Virus record (IMG/VR): IMGVR_UViG_3300028591_002019
Span: 1-6,869 of that record
Direction: 5' to 3' (one strand)
Origin: a virus
DNA: 6,869 bases
Part shown: positions 1 to 4,485 of the stretch, in pieces
Position numbering within the stretch: the stretch's first letter is position 1
Layout of the letters: every line of letters begins with the position of its first letter
Translations under genes and position numbers: made by a program
The notes under the pieces: generated by a model
What the model saw: only the letters and a program-made list of their open reading frames with translations
Databases searched by the model: none
Told to the model about the DNA's origin: nothing

Positions 1-213
1 ATCAAGAATTTCTTTTTCTCCTTTATATTTACTAAAAATATCAATTGTGATGGTAATTGCGTCCGTGCGGGTATCAAAAGCATCTGCTCTATTATGTCCG
101 CTTAAACGAGCCATCAGCCAAGGAAAATTCTCTACATAAGCCCCGTTATCAGTAATATTATAGCCTAATCCTCTAACCAGGCTACATAAATCAGTTTTTA
201 TTTTCTAAACCAT
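1..213 (-). CDS. Tail-completion / neck protein, DUF3168-like (N-terminal 71 codons; C-terminus lies beyond the window start). Carries an in-frame TAG at codon 3.
   Basis: ATG at 211..213 is preceded by SD GGAGGA (219..224) with a 5-nt spacer. The frame is open down to base 1 except for TAG at 205..207. Translation: MV[TAG]KIKTDLCSLVRGLGYNITDNGAYVENFPWLMARLSGHNRADAFDTRTDAITITIDIFSKYKGEKEILD. From memory, the pattern and the position after a gp10-like gene fit DUF3168/SPP1 gp17-type tail-completion proteins. The start overlaps the preceding ORF by 23 nt. Confidence 0.6.
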
Positions 214-367
214 AAGGGTCCTCCACTAATACATAATTATCTATATTATCAAAACGAGAAAGATACAAATACTTTGCGTATAAGTGTTCTCCTTCTTTTG
301 GAGTAGCATAATCATAAACAAACCCATTTGGGGCAATATAGGTTGTCATTTTTTTATTTAAAGCCAT
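191..367 (-). CDS. Hypothetical small protein, 58 aa
   Basis: ATG at 365..367 is preceded by SD GGAGG (375..379) with a 7-nt spacer. The stop is TGA at 191..193. Translation: MALNKKMTTYIAPNGFVYDYATPKEGEHLYAKYLYLSRFDNIDNYVLVEDPYGLENKN. It is below the length cutoff of the ORF track. I recognise no family. Confidence 0.5.
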   Translation of the reverse strand: MALNKKMTTYIAPNGFVYDYATPKEGEHLYAKYLYLSRFDNIDNYVLVEDPYGLENKN

Positions 368-380
368 TATACAACCTCCA

Positions 381-986
381 TTATGTTATTATAACCTAAA
401 TAGAATTACCGCCACCATAATCTCCTGAATAATTTGGAGTAGTATTAATATTAAACAAAGTATCAAAAATGCCATACAACATTACTAAAAGAGGAAATAA
501 TACCAAAAGGGCTAACATTCCTGCTGTCATTCCCAACAAGTCTTCCATAAATCCCCCTTCTTCACCTCCACCCAACGCTAATTGGGCTTCCGCAATAATT
601 GTTTCGCACATTTCTTCTAAAATTTCCTATGCTTCATTTACTGCTTCCTATGCTTCATCTATGAAGGCTTCCAGCCCTTCATTTAGGGCTGGTTCAAAAT
701 AAGGCTACGCAATCATCTTCCAAGTCCCATATTCAACATATTGCGCGTATTCTGCGGTAGCCTCTGCTTCACATTGAAATCCATCATTATCGGCCGAAAT
801 GGTGCTTTGTAAATATCCTGTATCTACTGGAACAAGAGAAGTGGCTATATCTTCAAAAACTTCGCAGAAAGCGTCGCACGCAGAAGAATAATCTACTTCT
901 ACTTCTGCGTGCTCGCCCATTACATCTGCGTCAAGATAAGTAGGTAATCCTAAATCACTTGGGGTGAATGAAACATATAGTCCCAT
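381..986 (-). CDS. HK97-gp10-family neck/tail-component protein with a hydrophobic C-terminal extension, 201 aa when four in-frame TAGs are read through
   Basis: ATG at 984..986 is preceded by AAGAGGTGA and a 6-nt spacer. Track ORFs 705..986 and 396..611 lie in the same frame and are joined by TAG codons at 705..707, 648..650 and 627..629. A fourth TAG at 396..398 is followed five codons later by TAA at 381..383. The motifs VPVDTGYLQSTI and YAQYVEYGTWKMIA[TAG]PYFEPAL match the HK97 gp10-like family signature as I recall it (vPvdTG.L..si ... YA.yVEfGT.kM.AQPf..PA). The C-terminal part contains one TM-like stretch, LLGMTAGMLALLVLFPLLVMLYGIF. Confidence 0.75.
624..658 (-). repeat. 14-nt direct repeat at 21-nt spacing (ttcctatgcttcat at 624..637 and 645..658); each copy carries an in-frame TAG
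   Basis: The two copies are exact matches read directly from the sequence. On the coding strand each copy reads ATGAAGCATAGGAA, so both encode the in-frame core EA[TAG]E (copy at 624..637 within NEA[TAG]EI, copy at 645..658 within DEA[TAG]EA). Confidence 0.7.
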
Positions 987-992
987 AGGATT

Positions 993-1223
993 TCACCTCT
1001 TTATTTCTTTTTTTAAATCATCTAAATCATTTTGTAATAAACTGGTTTGTTTTTCCAATTCAAAAGTGCGCTCAATTACTTGGTTATGTAAATTAACCTT
1101 TTTTTCTAACTGTTCTAATCTATATGCTATTAGTGCTTGATTTTTGTTATTAGAAAGAAAATTGCCAATTAATGAACCTATAAAGGTTATAATTGCTACA
1201 ATAATTGTTTCTGTTATCGCCAT
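993..1223 (-). CDS. Small membrane-anchored coiled-coil protein, 76 aa (BhlA/XhlA-like architecture; function uncertain)
   Basis: The preferred start is ATG 1221..1223 (MAITET...), preceded by GAGGT about 9 nt upstream. The track start at 1241 has no SD and overlaps the previous gene. The stop is TGA at 993..995. The N-terminal hydrophobic helix is TIIVAIITFIGSLIGNFL. It is followed by a charged heptad-like region, LEQLEKKVNLHNQVIERTFELEKQTSLLQNDLDDLKKEIKR. Confidence 0.65.
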   Translation of the reverse strand: MAITETIIVAIITFIGSLIGNFLSNNKNQALIAYRLEQLEKKVNLHNQVIERTFELEKQTSLLQNDLDDLKKEIKR

Positions 1224-1230
1224 ATCTTTA

Positions 1231-1767
1231 TTACCTCGCATTAAAACAATTTACATAATAACCAGCGGGGTCCAAAGATGTCCCCGTATTAGGCCCAATT
1301 ATATACCCACTAACATCACTTGTTAAAACAACAGAAAATTTTCCTGCGTCTTTTTTTGTAATACTAACAGTAATAGCAGGAGCATCAGAACTATTGCCGC
1401 CACGCTTTACCGTAGTAGTTCCATTGTCATAGGTAACAAAATAATATTTTATACTGCTGCTATTAGAAGGAATAGAAGTCAAGCAAGACATAAAAGTTAA
1501 ATAAAACTTTTCGGTAGGAGCATTATTAAGTGTCAAAGTAAGTGTTCTATTAATTTGTTTATAAATATAACCACCAGAAGCACCAACACCAGTGCCTCCA
1601 TAGCCCCAACCAGTCCAATAAGTATCTCTTTCAGTTCCTCCAACTGAAATACTATCTACCGCAGTAGCCATTTCTGCTACAGTCATTGTTCCACTTCCGC
1701 CGGTCTTTGTGCGGATAGCATTACCAAGAGCAGTTAAATCAGCAGTGTTTTCTAAACTATACGCCAT
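1231..1767 (-). CDS. Fibre-associated / putative distal receptor-binding protein, 178 aa
   Basis: ATG at 1765..1767 overlaps the upstream TAA (TAATG junction) and is preceded by AGGGGGGAG. The stop is TAA at 1231..1233. The track start at 1800 is a TTG lying inside the upstream fibre gene. The N-terminal motif LTALGNAIRTKTGGSGTMTVAEMATAV is one I recall from fibre-module proteins of Firmicutes phages. The remainder is Gly/Thr/Ser-rich and looks beta-type. Confidence 0.75.
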   Translation of the reverse strand: MAYSLENTADLTALGNAIRTKTGGSGTMTVAEMATAVDSISVGGTERDTYWTGWGYGGTGVGASGGYIYKQINRTLTLTLNNAPTEKFYLTFMSCLTSIPSNSSSIKYYFVTYDNGTTTVKRGGNSSDAPAITVSITKKDAGKFSVVLTSDVSGYIIGPNTGTSLDPAGYYVNCFNAR

Positions 1768-3347
1768 TAATAACTCCCCCCTACTGTAATTTCTTCCCAA
1801 GTGTAAGTAGCGTTATTTACGCCTTTAACACATTTTAGCATATAAGTGCCCGCAGTTTCAGGAGCAGCGGGTAATCCTGTAAGAGTAGAACTAATTTCAT
1901 TATTGGCATCAATATTAATACCTGCGCCCGCAGTATAAGTTGCGCCTCCGCCAGAGCCACTAATAACTCCATTGCTATCAATAGTAATCGTGCTACCATC
2001 TACCTTAACTCCGCCAAGAGTTGAAGTAGAAGCAACTGGAAGTTTATCTGGGGTTAAAATTGAACTATATTGAATTTGTCCTCGGGTTTGTGTGCCGTCT
2101 TCTTCTTCGTGGAAATAACGGATACTATTGCTGGAAAATTCAACCTAATCTCCCATATAATCTTCAAATAAGGGGTCTTCGCTCTCTTCCTCTTCGGTAG
2201 AAATCTGTCTTGTCTTATATTCTGTTAGTTGTAATCCATAAGTAGATAAAGTTGTATTACTGGGAGGACTTATAAAATTTTCAATAGTAATACCCTGACT
2301 TGAACTTATAGATACCTAATCAGCCTTATTATCTGGGTCTTCTGGATGAGTAGTATCAAATCCAAATAATTCTAAACTTCCTGCGGATAAAGAAGTGCCC
2401 GTTACTTCTGCGCCACTTTCAAACAAATCAATTGTTAAACTACCATCAGTAAGCATTGTTTGTCCCTATAACTAAAAAGTTTCTGGCATAGAAGAAGTAA
2501 GAGTAATACTATCAGGCTCTAAACCAGTATGGAGTGTTTCAGTATCAAAATTAACTCCACTACTTGCGACACTAATTTCATTATTCTAATCAATAGTAAT
2601 TCCACTACCAGCGGTATAGGTTGCTCCCCCAGAGGGAAGATTAGCCAAAGCAGTATCTACATAGTTTTCAGTAGCAACCTTACTACCTCCTGCGTTAGCA
2701 GTCGTTAAGCCATTTGCGTCGGTGCTATAACTATTACATCCTACATATAAATTACCGCGTAAATATTCATTACCATCCCAGTCTCTTGTAAAAATATTTT
2801 TACGCTAATTCGCCGCCGTGCCATTACCTACAATGTTCTAAAAAATCATATTGCTATCAATCTCATTACAAAATCCTTCTGCGTGCTAATACGCACTTTT
2901 TGCTACGGTTTTATAACCTTCGGCGTGAGAATAATTTCCTTCGGCATCTCCTGAACCCTCTGCGTGTGAATATTGTCCGTCTGCCGTAGAATTATTTGAA
3001 GCAAAAGAAAACATACCAATCGCACGGCCCTAATTAGTTCCTACTGCGTAATTTCCAATGTTAGATAAATTAAAATCAGTTGCGTAACCTAACATTACTG
3101 ATTTAGTGCCTGCGCCGGCTAACACTCTATCATTTAAATCCCAAGAAACAGTTCTATTATTTTCAGTTAATCCATTAGTAAAAGTATAAGAAGCATTGCT
3201 ACTTAATATACCATCATTATCAACTGTAATTGTTGAGTTATCAGGTTTTACTAAACCAAGAGTTGAAGAGGTAGCCTTGCCAGGAAGGCTACCTTTAATT
3301 AACTCAACTAATTTAGTAAGCCCGACATTATCTAAAAATTTTGCCAT
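1767..3347 (-). CDS. Large tail/neck fibre protein, 526 aa, containing nine in-frame TAG codons
   Basis: ATG at 3345..3347 is preceded by SD GGAGG (3357..3361). I translated the single frame by hand through to TAA at 1767..1769. It has no TAA or TGA in 527 codons. In-frame TAGs are at 3030, 2886, 2838, 2805, 2586, 2472, 2466, 2316 and 2145 (first base of the plus-strand cta). Fibre motifs occur on both sides of the TAGs: LGLVKPDNSTITVDNDGILS; YSHAEG-type repeats; NIVGNGTAAN[TAG]RKNIFTRDWDGNEYLRGNLYVG; GGATYTAGSGITID[TAG]NNEISV and GGGATYTAGAGINIDANNEISS; LGGVKVDGSTITIDSNGVISG; and the C-terminal PAAPETAGTYMLKCVKGVNNATYTWEEI. Confidence 0.85.
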
Positions 3348-3361
3348 ATGGGCTTACCTCC

Positions 3362-4060
3362 TTAAACAGCGCTTGCGTCATTCCAAATTGATGCGACTTC
3401 ACTATTGCTTAACGCAGAAATTGACATTTCTGTATCGCCAATAATCTCCCAAGCGTTATTTACATAAACATATTCAGTATAAACCTAATTAGTTCCTGTG
3501 GTTGCTTTTTCAACTAAATAAATCTTTGAAGAATTACCAGTTTGAGGCAATTCTCTAACAACCTCAAAACTGAATGAACTAATACCACTTAATGCGGTAG
3601 TAATATCTGCCATTGTAGCCACTTTATTACTGGAAGCATCATAAGCAGTATTAAATACTAATGCGTCTTGCTTACCAGCAATAGAAGGATTAATATAATC
3701 ATCAAAATATGTGTCTAAACCTATCGTTTCTCCAGGTTCAGCACTTGGAGATGGGTCGCCTAATTGTATTGACCAGAGTGGGACATACTCAACCCTTAAA
3801 TGGGGAGTAGTTCCCTCTTCACCATAGAAAATAATAGTGGTGTCATCCACAGGGATTTCGCTCCAATCAACAGTAGGGATATCAGCCATTGTTGCTACTT
3901 TATTAGTGCTTGCGTTATATGCGGTATTAAACACTAATGCGTCTTGTTTATCTCTTACATCAGAGGCGTTCGCTTTTTCTGCTAACGCAGTTTTTATAAG
4001 CCCACTATAATATAATAATTGTTCTCCGGTTAAAACTTTACTATAATCTAATTGTGCCAT
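3362..4060 (-). CDS. Fibre protein, 232 aa, with one in-frame TAG at codon 192
   Basis: ATG at 4058..4060 is preceded by SD AAGGAG (4071..4076). Track ORF 3485..4060 ends at TAG 3485..3487. The same frame continues for 40 more codons to TAA at 3362..3364, which sits just upstream of the SD of the next gene. The readthrough sequence is KIYLVEKATTGTN[TAG]VYTEYVYVNNAWEIIGDTEMSISALSNSEVASIWNDASAV. It contains an internal duplicated module, KQDALVFNTAY.AS.NKVATMADI. Confidence 0.85.
3602..3673 (-). repeat. Copy 2 of the diverged 72-nt intragenic repeat encoding KQDALVFNTAYDASSNKVATMADI
   Basis: It matches 3878..3949 at 22 of 24 amino acids, 276 nt apart in the same frame. This looks like module duplication within a fibre shaft. 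Confidence 0.8.
3878..3949 (-). repeat. Copy 1 of the diverged 72-nt intragenic repeat encoding KQDALVFNTAYNASTNKVATMADI
   Basis: See the partner copy at 3602..3673. Confidence 0.8.
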
Positions 4061-4080
4061 ATATTAAAATCTCCTTTTAT

Positions 4081-4485
4081 TTAAGAATTCCAAATAGCGA
4101 GAATATCACTATTTGTTAGATATTGAATATTAGATGAAATCGTTGAACCAACTAAACTAATCCCGTTTCCCGCAGTTAAAGTTTCTTGCTTTTCAGCCAA
4201 TCCTTCATCTACATATTCAATTGTGGCATATTCGCTTAAATCAATATCTCCCGCGCTAATATTCGTCGCAATCTCTTTAATATCTTCGGGAGTAAAATAA
4301 TCTACTCCTTTTTCAGGAGTTTTTCCTTTTAAAGAAGCCAACCATTCAGCCTGCGTTCCAGAGAAGCCATTATCAACAGCAATCTCATAAGCGGTTTTAC
4401 CGGCGGGACCACGGTAAGTAATATTACCTAATGAGAGTTGAACTTCTACGGGATTAATAGCATTTAAAACTTCAATACTTGCCAT
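4081..4485 (-). CDS. Fibre protein, 134 aa
   Basis: ATG at 4483..4485 overlaps the upstream TAA (TAATG junction) and is preceded by GGGGGGAG. The stop is TAA at 4081..4083. It contains GPAGKTAYEIAVDNGFSGTQAEWLASLKG, a motif I recall as very common in phage tail-fibre proteins (sAYEiAv.nGF.Gte.eWL.SLkG). Its C-terminus LTNSDILAIWNS resembles the C-terminus of the next fibre gene. Confidence 0.85.
   Translation of the reverse strand: MASIEVLNAINPVEVQLSLGNITYRGPAGKTAYEIAVDNGFSGTQAEWLASLKGKTPEKGVDYFTPEDIKEIATNISAGDIDLSEYATIEYVDEGLAEKQETLTAGNGISLVGSTISSNIQYLTNSDILAIWNS

What the first reader, a model, noticed from the sequence alone, without database searches (positions are those of the whole stretch)
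381..986. gp10-like neck protein joined through three closely spaced TAGs to a TM-containing tail, ending in a TAG-then-TAA arrangement
Under the standard code this locus appears as two ORFs, 705..986 and 396..611. The first would be cut in the middle of the conserved GT.kM.A-Q-Pf..PA motif. Both ORFs share one frame and are linked by 27 codons containing three TAGs (codons 94, 113, 120) with a plausible helical sequence: PYFEPALNEGLEAFIDEA-EAVNEA-EILEE. The resulting 201-aa protein has an unusual C-terminal half for a neck protein: a Gly/Glu-rich linker, one strongly hydrophobic TM-like helix and a GDYGGGNSI tail. The last TAG (396..398) is followed only five codons later by TAA (381..383). 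That could be a fossil of an ancestral TAG terminator with a backstop, or it could allow two C-terminal isoforms. A separate internal start at ATG 609..611 cannot be excluded, although only a weak AGGAA lies upstream.
Basis: partly seen in the sequence, partly recalled or inferred. Interest (0 to 1): 0.6.

Follow-up and report, generated by a model that had tools for sequence, protein, structure and literature searches.

The report
Tail completion protein with membrane-helix tail
This is one 201-residue phage tail completion protein, written with four TAG codons that are read as glutamine. It carries a conserved extra C-terminal piece with a membrane-type helix, in a group of small uncultured phages that have no normal tape measure protein.

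Summary
On the minus strand, 381..986 is one frame of 201 codons with TAG at codons 94, 113, 120 and 197, and it ends in TAA.

It is a single protein. Three relatives that use the standard code (L007, L015/G005, L010) encode the same 190-220 aa architecture as one uninterrupted ORF. TAG and CAA/CAG alternate at an invariant glutamine (AQPYF). Of 349 TAG positions in recoded relatives, 122 align to Gln in standard-code relatives.

The N-terminal half is an HK97 gp10 / SPP1 gp16.1-type tail completion protein (TCP). The C-terminal half is conserved across at least 128 sequence clusters. It consists of a long helix, a Gly-rich linker, a strongly hydrophobic helix, and an end of ..[VI]x-I-T.

The last TAG lies inside that conserved end. 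The "fossil terminator / two isoforms" idea and the internal-start idea are therefore not supported.

The clade consists of complete 25-27 kb siphophage genomes. They have a tiny hydrophilic ORF where the tape measure protein should be, and no hydrophobic tape measure.

My inference, not shown: the TCP tail supplies the membrane-inserting, tape-measure-like part during DNA delivery.

TAG recoding in small gut phages is already known. The TCP architecture appears undescribed, so I class it as a new variant of a known kind with moderate interest.

The parts
381..986 (-). Complete gene for the 201-aa tail completion protein (TCP), read with TAG=Gln. Start ATG at 984-986, stop TAA at 381-383.
   Evidence: An identical protein (P0001) is called on a 10.1-kb ENA contig, L001.
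994..1000 (-). Ribosome-binding site AGAGGTG, overlapping the TGA stop (993-995) of the upstream gene.
   Evidence: Read directly.
705..707 (-). TAG codon 94. It falls on the invariant Gln of the family motif GTWKMIA-Q-PYFEPA.
   Evidence: Q in 119/119 homologues. The same column is CAA/CAG in standard-code relatives L007, L015 and L010 and in recoded L006, L011-13 and L016, and TAG in L001, L002, L005, L008, L014, L017, L019 and L022.
648..650 (-). TAG codon 113, in the long helix.
   Evidence: The aligned column is Q in 37, G in 34 and E in 20 of 119 homologues. It lies inside the phrog_5 match, residues 36-119.
627..629 (-). TAG codon 120, in the long helix, after the invariant A119.
   Evidence: The aligned column is Q in 79/119 homologues.
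396..398 (-). TAG codon 197. It is a sense codon inside the conserved C-terminal end ..I-Q-V-I-I-T.
   Evidence: The aligned column is E in 59, D in 37 and Q in 2 of 119 homologues. The next four residues are conserved family-wide.
630..905 (-). HK97 gp10 / SPP1 gp16.1-like TCP core, residues 28-119.
   Evidence: Pfam PF04883 matches residues 28-87 at 27.1 bits. phrog_5 'tail completion or Neck1 protein' matches residues 36-119, E 7e-13. tblastn hits TP901-1 ORF40 at 2e-7 and SPP1 gene 16.1 at 6e-5. PDB 9mu2_P, 'HK97 gp10 family', E 0.008. BFVD fold matches to 110-136 aa 'putative tail component' proteins, probability about 1.0.
897..983 (-). Clade-specific N-terminal beta extension, residues 2-30. 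It starts with the nearly invariant MGLY.
   Evidence: AF2 strands E2-7, E17-22 and E25-30. M1, G2, L3 and Y4 are conserved in at least 108/119 homologues. It lies outside the Pfam and PHROG matches.
570..698 (-). Long alpha-helix, residues 97-139. This is the first arm of the predicted helical hairpin.
   Evidence: AF2 H97-139, pLDDT 94-96. The standard-code relative gives H93-150.
552..572 (-). Gly/Glu-rich linker GGGEEGG, residues 139-145.
   Evidence: Read. It is the low-pLDDT turn between the two helices.
453..539 (-). Hydrophobic, TM-like helix, residues 150-178 (LLGMTAGMLALLVLFPLLVMLYGIFDTLF), containing GxxxG (GMTAG).
   Evidence: KD19 of 2.47. All 120 close homologues score at least 1.93, and nearly all full-length cluster representatives also have such a helix. 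AF2 H146-178. GxxxG occurs in or near the helix in 155 of 231 members.
384..452 (-). Variable Gly-rich tail, ending in the conserved beta-strand V-I-I-T (384-395).
   Evidence: AF2 E198-200 and E217-219 in the relative. The end is ..IT in 107/120 homologues.
191..367 (-). Conserved 58-aa ORF between the TCP and tail terminator genes. Function unknown.
   Evidence: Orthologues at the same place in 13 relatives, 35-64% identity. It is almost TAG-free.
1..213 (-). 5' part of the tail terminator (head-joining) gene. It runs off the window.
   Evidence: It is the orthologue of L001 4257-4664 and G005 14685-15104. phrog_176 'tail terminator'; PF11367 weak.
993..1241 (-). Upstream 82-aa protein with an N-terminal TM helix and a coiled coil. 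It is a neighbour, not shown to belong to the TCP function.
   Evidence: phrog_1863 E 4e-14. KD19 of 2.16. Absent from the standard-code relative G005.

Best explanation
Shown: 381..986(-) encodes one 201-aa virion protein, translated with TAG as glutamine.
- Residues about 28-119 are a tail completion protein (TCP) of the HK97 gp10 / SPP1 gp16.1 / TP901-1 ORF40 kind.
- The protein also has clade-specific additions: an N-terminal beta piece (MGLY..) and an 80-residue C-terminal module. The module is a long helix, a Gly-rich turn, a strongly hydrophobic helix with a GxxxG motif, and an end of [VI]-x-I-T.
- All four TAGs, including the last, are ordinary sense codons. The protein ends at TAA.

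Inferred: by analogy with 80alpha gp51, the TCP core sits inside the top of the tail tube at the DNA end. In this phage group the tape measure position holds only a 56-139 aa hydrophilic ORF, and no other tail protein has a hydrophobic helix. I propose that the TCP's helical hairpin hangs into the lumen of a presumably short tail and does the job of the hydrophobic tape-measure segment. It would leave the tail ahead of the DNA and insert into the host cytoplasmic membrane to help form or dock the DNA conduit. The conserved C-terminal strand would hold the hairpin in place until ejection.
For: One protein, TAG=Gln:
- Standard-code relatives carry uninterrupted ORFs of 201 aa (L007) and 220 aa (L015/G005). 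L010 ends with a genuine TAG stop after ..LEITD.
- TAG and CAR alternate at the invariant Gln.
- 122 of 349 TAG positions align to Q in standard-code relatives; the next most common is E with 42.
- No gene in the window ends in TAG.

TCP identity.

Conservation of the tail:
- 449 homologues of 186-221 aa.
- 128 clusters at E<1e-30, nearly all with a helix of KD19>1.6 and an ..I[T/I] end.
- The two AF2 models agree on the hairpin plus terminal strand, with pLDDT 80.7 and 81.7.

Context:
- The synteny TCP - p65 - terminator - major tail protein - chaperone - tiny ORF ending ..QRxGGN[YS] - giant Dit-N-like protein - DitC - Tal is conserved.
- In all 10 clade loci the long downstream ORF has no TM-like segment. 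In 13 of 14 loci with classical short TCPs, a 640-1250 aa ORF with 2-11 TM-like segments follows (example).
- In the complete standard-code genome G005 the TCP has the most hydrophobic segment of all 28 proteins.

Literature:
- The 80alpha TCP lies in the tail lumen, contacts the DNA end and the N-termini of three tape measure copies, and presumably exits with them (PMC11661146).
- SPP1 particles without gp16.1 eject their DNA outside the cell (PMC11099176).
- Tape measure proteins carry glycine-zipper TM segments and are thought to form channels (PMC10240207).
Against: - No experiment and no structure of this protein in a virion exists.
- The link between the TM tail and the missing long tape measure rests on one clade, so it is effectively one evolutionary event.
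- Calling the small ORF a mini tape measure rests only on its position and a conserved C-terminal motif. It has no family match.
- Tail length is unknown.
- A very hydrophobic helix could equally be buried in a lumen bundle and never meet a membrane.
- GxxxG is expected fairly often next to a Gly-rich linker, and I ran no control for this.
- Foldseek found no solved structure resembling the full protein.
Confidence: 0.5

Rival explanations
1. The hydrophobic hairpin is purely structural. It fills and measures the lumen of a short tail, standing in for a tape measure as ruler and plug. It holds back the DNA but never inserts into a membrane.
For: - No long tape measure in the clade.
- The two predicted helices of 43+33 residues (58+41 in G005) would span about 6-9 nm.
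- Hydrophobic tape-measure segments are also buried in the tube before ejection (general knowledge).
- One of the models proposed for SPP1 gp16.1 is a clamp that retains the tape measure and DNA.
Against: - A mean hydrophobicity of 1.9-3.2 over 19 residues in every member is more than a soluble bundle needs.
- The length of the extension varies little while the giant tail-tip protein varies from about 2000 to 3000 aa, so it gives no obvious ruler signal.
- This reading and the membrane reading are not mutually exclusive.
Confidence: 0.25
2. The C-terminal helix acts in the producing cell. It could be a tail-anchor that brings tail or neck assembly to the membrane, or a holin-like lysis function, because these small genomes show no obvious holin or endolysin.
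For: - In the complete standard-code genome G005 the TCP is the only protein with a clearly TM-like helix (KD19 1.93; two others only just pass the 1.6 cut-off), and no holin or lysin family was found among the proteins scanned.
- The topology (one C-terminal hydrophobic helix followed by a short tail) resembles tail-anchored proteins.
Against: - The helix is fused to a virion core protein.
- It is followed by a sequence-specific, nearly invariant C-terminal strand, which holins lack.
- Not all ORFs of the genomes were scanned, and small ORFs could have been missed.
- The window has its own separate small TM protein at 993..1241.
Confidence: 0.1
3. The last TAG (396..398) works as a leaky or regulated terminator. 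Two C-terminal isoforms (196 aa and 201 aa) would then be made on purpose, or it is a relic terminator with TAA as a backstop.
For: - No suppressor tRNA was found in complete recoded relatives, so TAG decoding may be incomplete and truncated by-products are plausible.
- TAG is rare in the most abundant proteins and common in low-copy ones.
Against: - The residues after the TAG (V-I-I-T) are the best conserved of the whole tail. They are also present in standard-code relatives, where the aligned codon encodes E, D or N.
- Only this member, of those examined, has TAG at that column.
- Any leakiness would apply equally to the three upstream TAGs.
Confidence: 0.05
4. There are two separate genes under the standard code (705..986 and 396..611), or an independent product starts at ATG 609..611.
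For: Table 11 lists both ORFs. A weak AGGAA lies upstream of 609..611.
Against: - The first ORF would end inside the invariant family motif.
- Homology runs across the TAGs.
- Standard-code relatives have one ORF.
- Met126 is not conserved, at 18/119.
- 60% of the window is covered by ORFs under table 11, against 92% with TAG=Q.
Confidence: 0.02

Closest known systems
Tail completion proteins (TCP / Ne1; Pfam PF04883): HK97 gp10, SPP1 gp16.1, TP901-1 ORF40, 80alpha gp51
   Same: - Significant sequence matches.
- The motif GT..M.AQPF..PA.
- The same secondary-structure order: helix, beta-hairpin, loop with the motif, C-terminal helix.
- The gene lies just upstream of the terminator and major tail protein genes.
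   Different: - Classical members are 103-150 aa and end soon after the C-terminal helix.
- This one adds about 30 N-terminal residues and about 80 C-terminal residues with a TM-like helix and a conserved ..VIIT end.
- A 58-aa ORF separates it from the terminator gene, and a block of fibre-like genes precedes it.
Hydrophobic / glycine-zipper segments of siphophage tape measure proteins (e.g. HK97, lambda gpH, T5 pb2)
   Same: - A helical, strongly hydrophobic segment, often with GxxxG.
- Presumably carried inside the tail lumen and released before the DNA.
- Proposed to form or dock the membrane channel (PMC11099176 discussion).
   Different: - It is not a tape measure by sequence, size or gene position.
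- It has a single helix rather than several.
- It is fused to the protein that normally binds the tape measure N-termini.
Small TAG-recoded gut phages 'Topaz' and 'Garnet' (Borges et al., bioRxiv 10.1101/2021.08.26.457843)
   Same: - Genomes of about 22-25 kb.
- TAG read as Gln in structural genes.
- Code 11 and code 15 members mixed within one clade.
- Integrase present in some members.
- The Topaz prophage is bounded by a tRNA-Thr, and relative G003 carries a tRNA-Thr gene.
- A suppressor tRNA was detected in only 40% of recoded genomes.
   Different: Membership could not be tested because no Topaz or Garnet sequence was at hand. That paper does not describe the TCP architecture. The figure legends use the abbreviation TMP (tape measure protein); which gene it marks cannot be checked, because figures are not held.
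Internal ejection proteins of short-tailed phages (P22 gp7/gp16/gp20, T7 gp14-16)
   Same: Virion-internal proteins with hydrophobic segments that leave the particle first and build a passage through the envelope (PMC8954989 listed; otherwise my own knowledge).
   Different: No sequence or fold relationship. Those proteins are stored in the head, not in a tail tube. This is an analogy of function only.

Membership tests
HK97 gp10-like tail completion protein (PF04883 / PHROG 5 / Ne1) | Match to the family model above the curated cut-off. | tested here: met
   PF04883 at 27.1 bits against a cut-off of 21.4, residues 28-87. phrog_5 E 6.9e-13, residues 36-119.
HK97 gp10-like tail completion protein (PF04883 / PHROG 5 / Ne1) | Conserved motif G-T-x-x-M-x-A-x-P-[FY] after the beta-hairpin. 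| tested here: met
   GTWKMIAQPYF at residues 87-97. G87, T88, Q94 and F97 are invariant in 120 sequences. The motif aligns to 9mu2_P 'EFGTRYMEAEPF'.
HK97 gp10-like tail completion protein (PF04883 / PHROG 5 / Ne1) | Homology to experimentally studied TCPs. | tested here: met
   tblastn: TP901-1 ORF40 at 2e-7 and SPP1 gene 16.1 at 6e-5.
HK97 gp10-like tail completion protein (PF04883 / PHROG 5 / Ne1) | Gene sits directly before the tail-to-head joining/terminator gene and two genes before the major tail protein gene. | tested here: inconclusive
   The order is TCP - 58-aa ORF - terminator - major tail protein. The neighbourhood is right, but one extra small gene intervenes.
HK97 gp10-like tail completion protein (PF04883 / PHROG 5 / Ne1) | Location inside the tail at the neck of the virion. 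| not testable with these tools
   Needs virion proteomics or cryo-EM. Known for 80alpha gp51.
Stop-codon-recoded phage, TAG = Gln (code 15) | In-frame TAGs inside conserved genes, and TAG not used as a terminator. | tested here: met
   17 in-frame TAGs in 6 of 12 genes. Stops are TAA in 8 genes and TGA in 4. ORF coverage is 0.60 under table 11 and 0.92 with TAG=Q.
Stop-codon-recoded phage, TAG = Gln (code 15) | TAG positions correspond to Gln in relatives that use the standard code. | tested here: met
   122 of 349 align to Q, against E 42 and K 24. TAG and CAR interchange at the invariant Gln94.
Stop-codon-recoded phage, TAG = Gln (code 15) | Phage-encoded suppressor tRNA(CUA). | tested here: not met
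   No tRNA in the window, in 20 related loci, or in complete recoded genomes G001 and G004. G003 has only tRNA-Thr(CGT). This feature is not obligatory: it was found in only 40% of recoded genomes.
Tape measure protein | Long helical protein encoded between the tail chaperone genes and Dit. | tested here: not met
   The TCP gene lies upstream of the terminator gene. The tape measure slot holds a 56-139 aa hydrophilic ORF. There were no tape-measure family hits.
Tape measure protein | Hydrophobic/TM segment, often a glycine zipper. | tested here: met
   KD19 of 2.47; GMTAG in this protein; GxxxG in 155 of 231 members. This is a resemblance of function, not membership.
Holin | Small membrane protein encoded next to an endolysin, with a charged C-terminus. 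| tested here: not met
   It is fused to a 140-aa virion domain. No lysin neighbour is present, and the C-terminus is hydrophobic..VIIT.

The most novel reading that the evidence does not exclude
In this uncultured lineage of 25-27 kb siphophages, the tape measure protein has shrunk to a 56-139 aa hydrophilic remnant. The tail completion protein has taken over its hydrophobic, channel-forming part. A single lumen-resident protein would then both cap the DNA end and insert into the host membrane. If true, this directly shows what tail completion proteins do during DNA delivery, and it implies a very short siphovirus-type tail.
Probability: 0.35. Interest if true: 0.7.

Novelty: new variant of a known kind. 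Interest (0 to 1): 0.5.

Why it matters
How tail completion proteins steer phage DNA into the cytoplasm is an open question (Auzat et al. 2024, PMC11099176). Their position inside the tail was seen for the first time only recently (80alpha, PMC11661146).

Here is a large natural family in which this protein carries its own membrane-type helix, in phages that lack a hydrophobic tape measure. That family offers a simple test of the idea that the TCP leaves with the DNA and acts at the membrane.

Practically, the case also shows that table-11 annotation cuts this gene inside its signature motif. Recoded and standard-code sister genomes can be used to settle such calls.

Tried and rejected
- **Foldseek against PDB.** The full model gave nothing significant; the best hit was E 0.06, to FepE.
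- **Foldseek against BFVD.** It found only short classical gp10-like proteins covering the N-terminal half.
- **Single-protein scan of IMG/VR.** It found no relatives. The alignment-based scan was needed.
- **Scan of GTDB genomes.** It returned only distant classical TCPs and no prophage of this clade.
- **INPHARED search.** No cultured phage has the full architecture. The 25.5-kb human-gut record MT835606 turned out to be an unrelated phage with a classical TCP and a 1125-aa tape measure.
- **Suppressor tRNA.** ARAGORN and Rfam RF00005 found none.
- **First ORF-coverage script.** It ignored open-ended ORFs and gave misleading numbers for some loci. I rely on it only for the window and L007.
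- **The giant downstream ORF.** I first took it for the tape measure. Its N-terminus is Dit-like (phrog_33, weak, E 0.0046). The following 116-aa ORF matches the Dit C-domain.
- **Literature.** Searches found no description of a TM-bearing TCP or of tape-measure-less siphophages.
Full report
**1. The observation**

All genes in the 6869-bp window (37% GC) lie on the minus strand. Under table 11 the locus gives two ORFs, 705..986 (93 aa) and 396..611 (71 aa). With TAG read as a residue, the same frame is open from ATG 984-986 to TAA 381-383, giving 201 codons.

TAG occurs at codons 94 (705-707), 113 (648-650), 120 (627-629) and 197 (396-398). AGAGGTG lies 7 nt upstream of the start and overlaps the TGA of the preceding gene.

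The window holds 17 in-frame TAGs in 6 of its 12 genes. No gene ends in TAG: 8 end in TAA and 4 in TGA.

**2. One protein, TAG = glutamine**

An identical 201-aa protein is on record from a 10.1-kb ENA contig (L001), and 449 homologues of about 186-221 aa were found. The homologues examined at DNA level are mostly TAG-recoded themselves. Their database translations are therefore not independent evidence.

Independent evidence comes from relatives that use the standard code:
- L007 has a 201-aa ORF with no TAG, and all neighbouring genes are intact under table 11.
- L015 (= G005) is a complete 26.8-kb genome that is open throughout under table 11, including a 2953-aa gene. Its TCP is 220 aa.
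- In L010, TAG is the real stop after ..LEITD.

All three encode the gp10-like part, the hydrophobic helix and the conserved end as one ORF.

At the invariant glutamine of the motif A-Q-P-Y-F, the codon is TAG in eight loci and CAA/CAG in the three standard-code loci plus six recoded ones. I also aligned every TAG of ten recoded relatives to the standard-code genomes. Of 349 positions, 122 fell on Q, 42 on E and 24 on K.

The internal Met126 (ATG 609-611) is Met in only 18 of 119 homologues. I regard the two-gene and internal-start readings as excluded.

**3. The last TAG**

The residues after codon 197 are V-I-I-T. In 119 homologues:
- position 198 is V or I in 117;
- position 200 is I in 118;
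- position 201 is T in 106.

The wider family ends in [VI]-x-I-[T/I] in most clusters. Standard-code relatives end ..DIIIT and ..NVIIT. The column aligned with the TAG is mostly E or D.

So the TAG sits inside a conserved terminal beta-strand (AF2 E198-200; E217-219 in the relative). The protein ends at TAA because that is where the family ends. There is no sign of a relic terminator or of designed isoforms.

Truncated by-products from incomplete TAG decoding cannot be excluded. They would arise at all four TAGs alike.

**4. What the protein is**

The evidence that residues 28-119 are a tail completion protein (TCP) is:
- Residues 28-87 match Pfam HK97-gp10_like above its cut-off.
- Residues 36-119 match PHROG 5, 'tail completion or Neck1 protein', E 7e-13.
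- tblastn reaches TP901-1 ORF40 (2e-7) and SPP1 gene 16.1 (6e-5), two experimentally studied TCPs.
- A profile search hits PDB 9mu2 chain P, 'HK97 gp10 family phage protein'.
- The predicted fold matches 110-136 aa 'putative tail component' models in BFVD over the N-terminal half only.

Downstream lie a conserved 58-aa ORF, the tail terminator and the major tail protein.

Classical family members found in other loci are 103-125 aa and have no hydrophobic helix.

**5. The extension**

All 120 close homologues have a 19-residue window with Kyte-Doolittle mean of at least 1.93; this protein scores 2.47 at 156-174.

A profile search of 1.84 billion cluster representatives found 128 clusters at E<1e-30. 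Nearly all full-length ones (180-260 aa) have the helix near the C-terminus and the ..I-T type end. The short entries look like truncated calls.

Two independent AF2 runs gave the same plan, one for this protein and one for the standard-code relative. The plan is an N-terminal strand, the TCP core, a 43-58 residue helix, a Gly-rich turn, a 33-41 residue second helix containing the hydrophobic stretch, a disordered Gly-rich piece and a terminal strand. Mean pLDDT was 80.7 and 81.7.

GxxxG occurs in or next to the helix in 155 of 231 members. I treat this as suggestive only, because the linker is Gly-rich and I ran no control.

No cultured phage in INPHARED has this architecture.

**6. Genome context**

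Relatives in IMG/VR are complete genomes of 25.2-27.2 kb with direct terminal repeats and 100% estimated completeness.

The gene order is conserved:
1. small and large terminase, portal, MuF-like protein, scaffold, capsid protein;
2. gp6-like adaptor, then a conserved 100-109 aa ORF in the head-closure position (no family match);
3. a variable block of fibre-like genes;
4. TCP, small ORF, terminator, major tail protein, a 100-190 aa chaperone-like protein;
5. a 56-139 aa hydrophilic ORF ending ..Q-R-x-G-G-N-[YS];
6. a 2000-3000 aa protein whose N-terminus is Dit-like, a separate Dit C-domain and a short Tal.

There is no long tape measure. In all ten clade loci the long downstream ORF has no TM-like segment. 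In 13 of 14 loci with classical short TCPs, a 640-1250 aa ORF with 2-11 TM-like segments follows.

In G005 the TCP holds the most hydrophobic segment of all 28 proteins.

**7. Mechanism (inferred)**

Three published results bear on the mechanism:
- In 80alpha the TCP sits in the tail lumen at the neck. It touches the DNA end and pairs its beta-hairpin with the N-termini of three tape measure copies. It is thought to leave with them (PMC11661146).
- SPP1 particles lacking gp16.1 look normal but eject DNA outside the cell (PMC11099176).
- Tape measure proteins carry glycine-zipper TM segments and are credited with channel formation (PMC10240207).

Taken together with the context above, I think the most likely role of the extension is a built-in tape-measure-like piece. 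It would be a helical hairpin stored in the lumen of a presumably short tail and held by the conserved terminal strand. On ejection it would be released and inserted into the cytoplasmic membrane.

I put about 0.5 on this. The main rival (0.25) is a purely structural ruler or plug. A role in the producing cell, as a membrane anchor or holin-like protein, gets 0.1. The association with tape measure loss is a single-clade observation.

**8. What is known and what is new**

TAG-to-Gln recoding in small gut phages, with code 11 and code 15 members in one clade, is published. So is the detection of suppressor tRNAs in only 40% of recoded genomes. Both are in Borges et al. ('Topaz', 22 +/- 3 kb, Oscillospiraceae, prophage bounded by tRNA-Thr; and 'Garnet').

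This clade resembles Topaz in four ways: genome size, mixed codes, an integrase in G005 and a tRNA-Thr gene in G003. I could not test membership.

Three literature searches and the phage record collection gave no description of a TCP with a membrane-type C-terminal module, or of its pairing with a vestigial tape measure. I file it as a new variant of a known kind.

I confirmed that independently.

**9. Limits**

- Model coordinates are not returned, so contacts between the terminal strand and the N-terminal sheet are conjecture.
- Contexts of the most distant TM-tailed clusters could not be fetched.

Noticed in passing
L001 5323-5508 and 5508-10103; G005 (L015) 15976-16218 and 16218-25079 in gene orientation: The clade has no long tape measure protein. 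Its slot holds a 56-139 aa hydrophilic ORF with a conserved end ..QRxGGN[YS]. This is followed by a 2000-3000 aa protein with a Dit-like N-terminus, a separate 116-aa Dit C-domain and a 346-aa Tal. This suggests a very short siphovirus-type tail with a huge tip protein.
   Followed up: partly
G001 (L006+L066), G004 (L069+L017): complete recoded genomes: These are complete 25.5-25.8 kb genomes with terminal repeats and many in-frame TAGs, even in terminase and portal genes. They contain no detectable tRNA, by ARAGORN or Rfam. How TAG is decoded is unexplained; host or co-infecting phage suppressors are possible.
   Followed up: partly
orthologous genes across window, G001, G004, L002-L022: TAG density follows expected protein abundance inversely. 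Capsid protein has 0.4 and scaffold 1.9 per 1000 codons. Large terminase has 17.8, TCP 17.1, MuF-like 15.2 and Tal 13.5.
   Followed up: partly
L007, L010, L015/G005 versus G001, G004, L005: Standard-code and TAG-recoded genomes sit side by side in one clade. Their large terminases are 76-93% identical, so the code has switched recently and probably repeatedly.
   Followed up: partly
window 1231-4485 (-): A block of fibre-like genes lies between the head-completion genes and the TCP gene, an unusual place. It includes collagen-like and tail-fibre repeat motifs and a 526-aa protein with 9 TAGs. These may be head or neck fibres. The block varies between relatives.
   Followed up: no
window 993-1241 (-): An 82-aa protein with an N-terminal TM helix and a coiled coil (phrog_1863, weak DUF7365) lies directly upstream of the TCP. 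It is present in L001-L003 but absent from G005. It may be lysis-related.
   Followed up: no
window 191-367 (-): A conserved, almost TAG-free 58-71 aa ORF is always inserted between the TCP and terminator genes. It has no family match and may be a partner of the TCP extension.
   Followed up: no
G005 98-994 (gene orientation); L064 1498-1573: G005 encodes a tyrosine integrase plus HNH and GIY-YIG endonucleases. G003 carries a tRNA-Thr(CGT) gene. G001 and G004 lack an integrase match but have a putative replication-organizer gene. This is reminiscent of the published Topaz prophages, which are bounded by a host tRNA-Thr.
   Followed up: no
L056 (JAUVHR010000008.1, 25,872 bp): A contig binned in a Candidatus Thorarchaeota MAG carries a classical 125-aa gp10-like TCP. 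It is probably a phage contig rather than archaeal chromosome.
   Followed up: no
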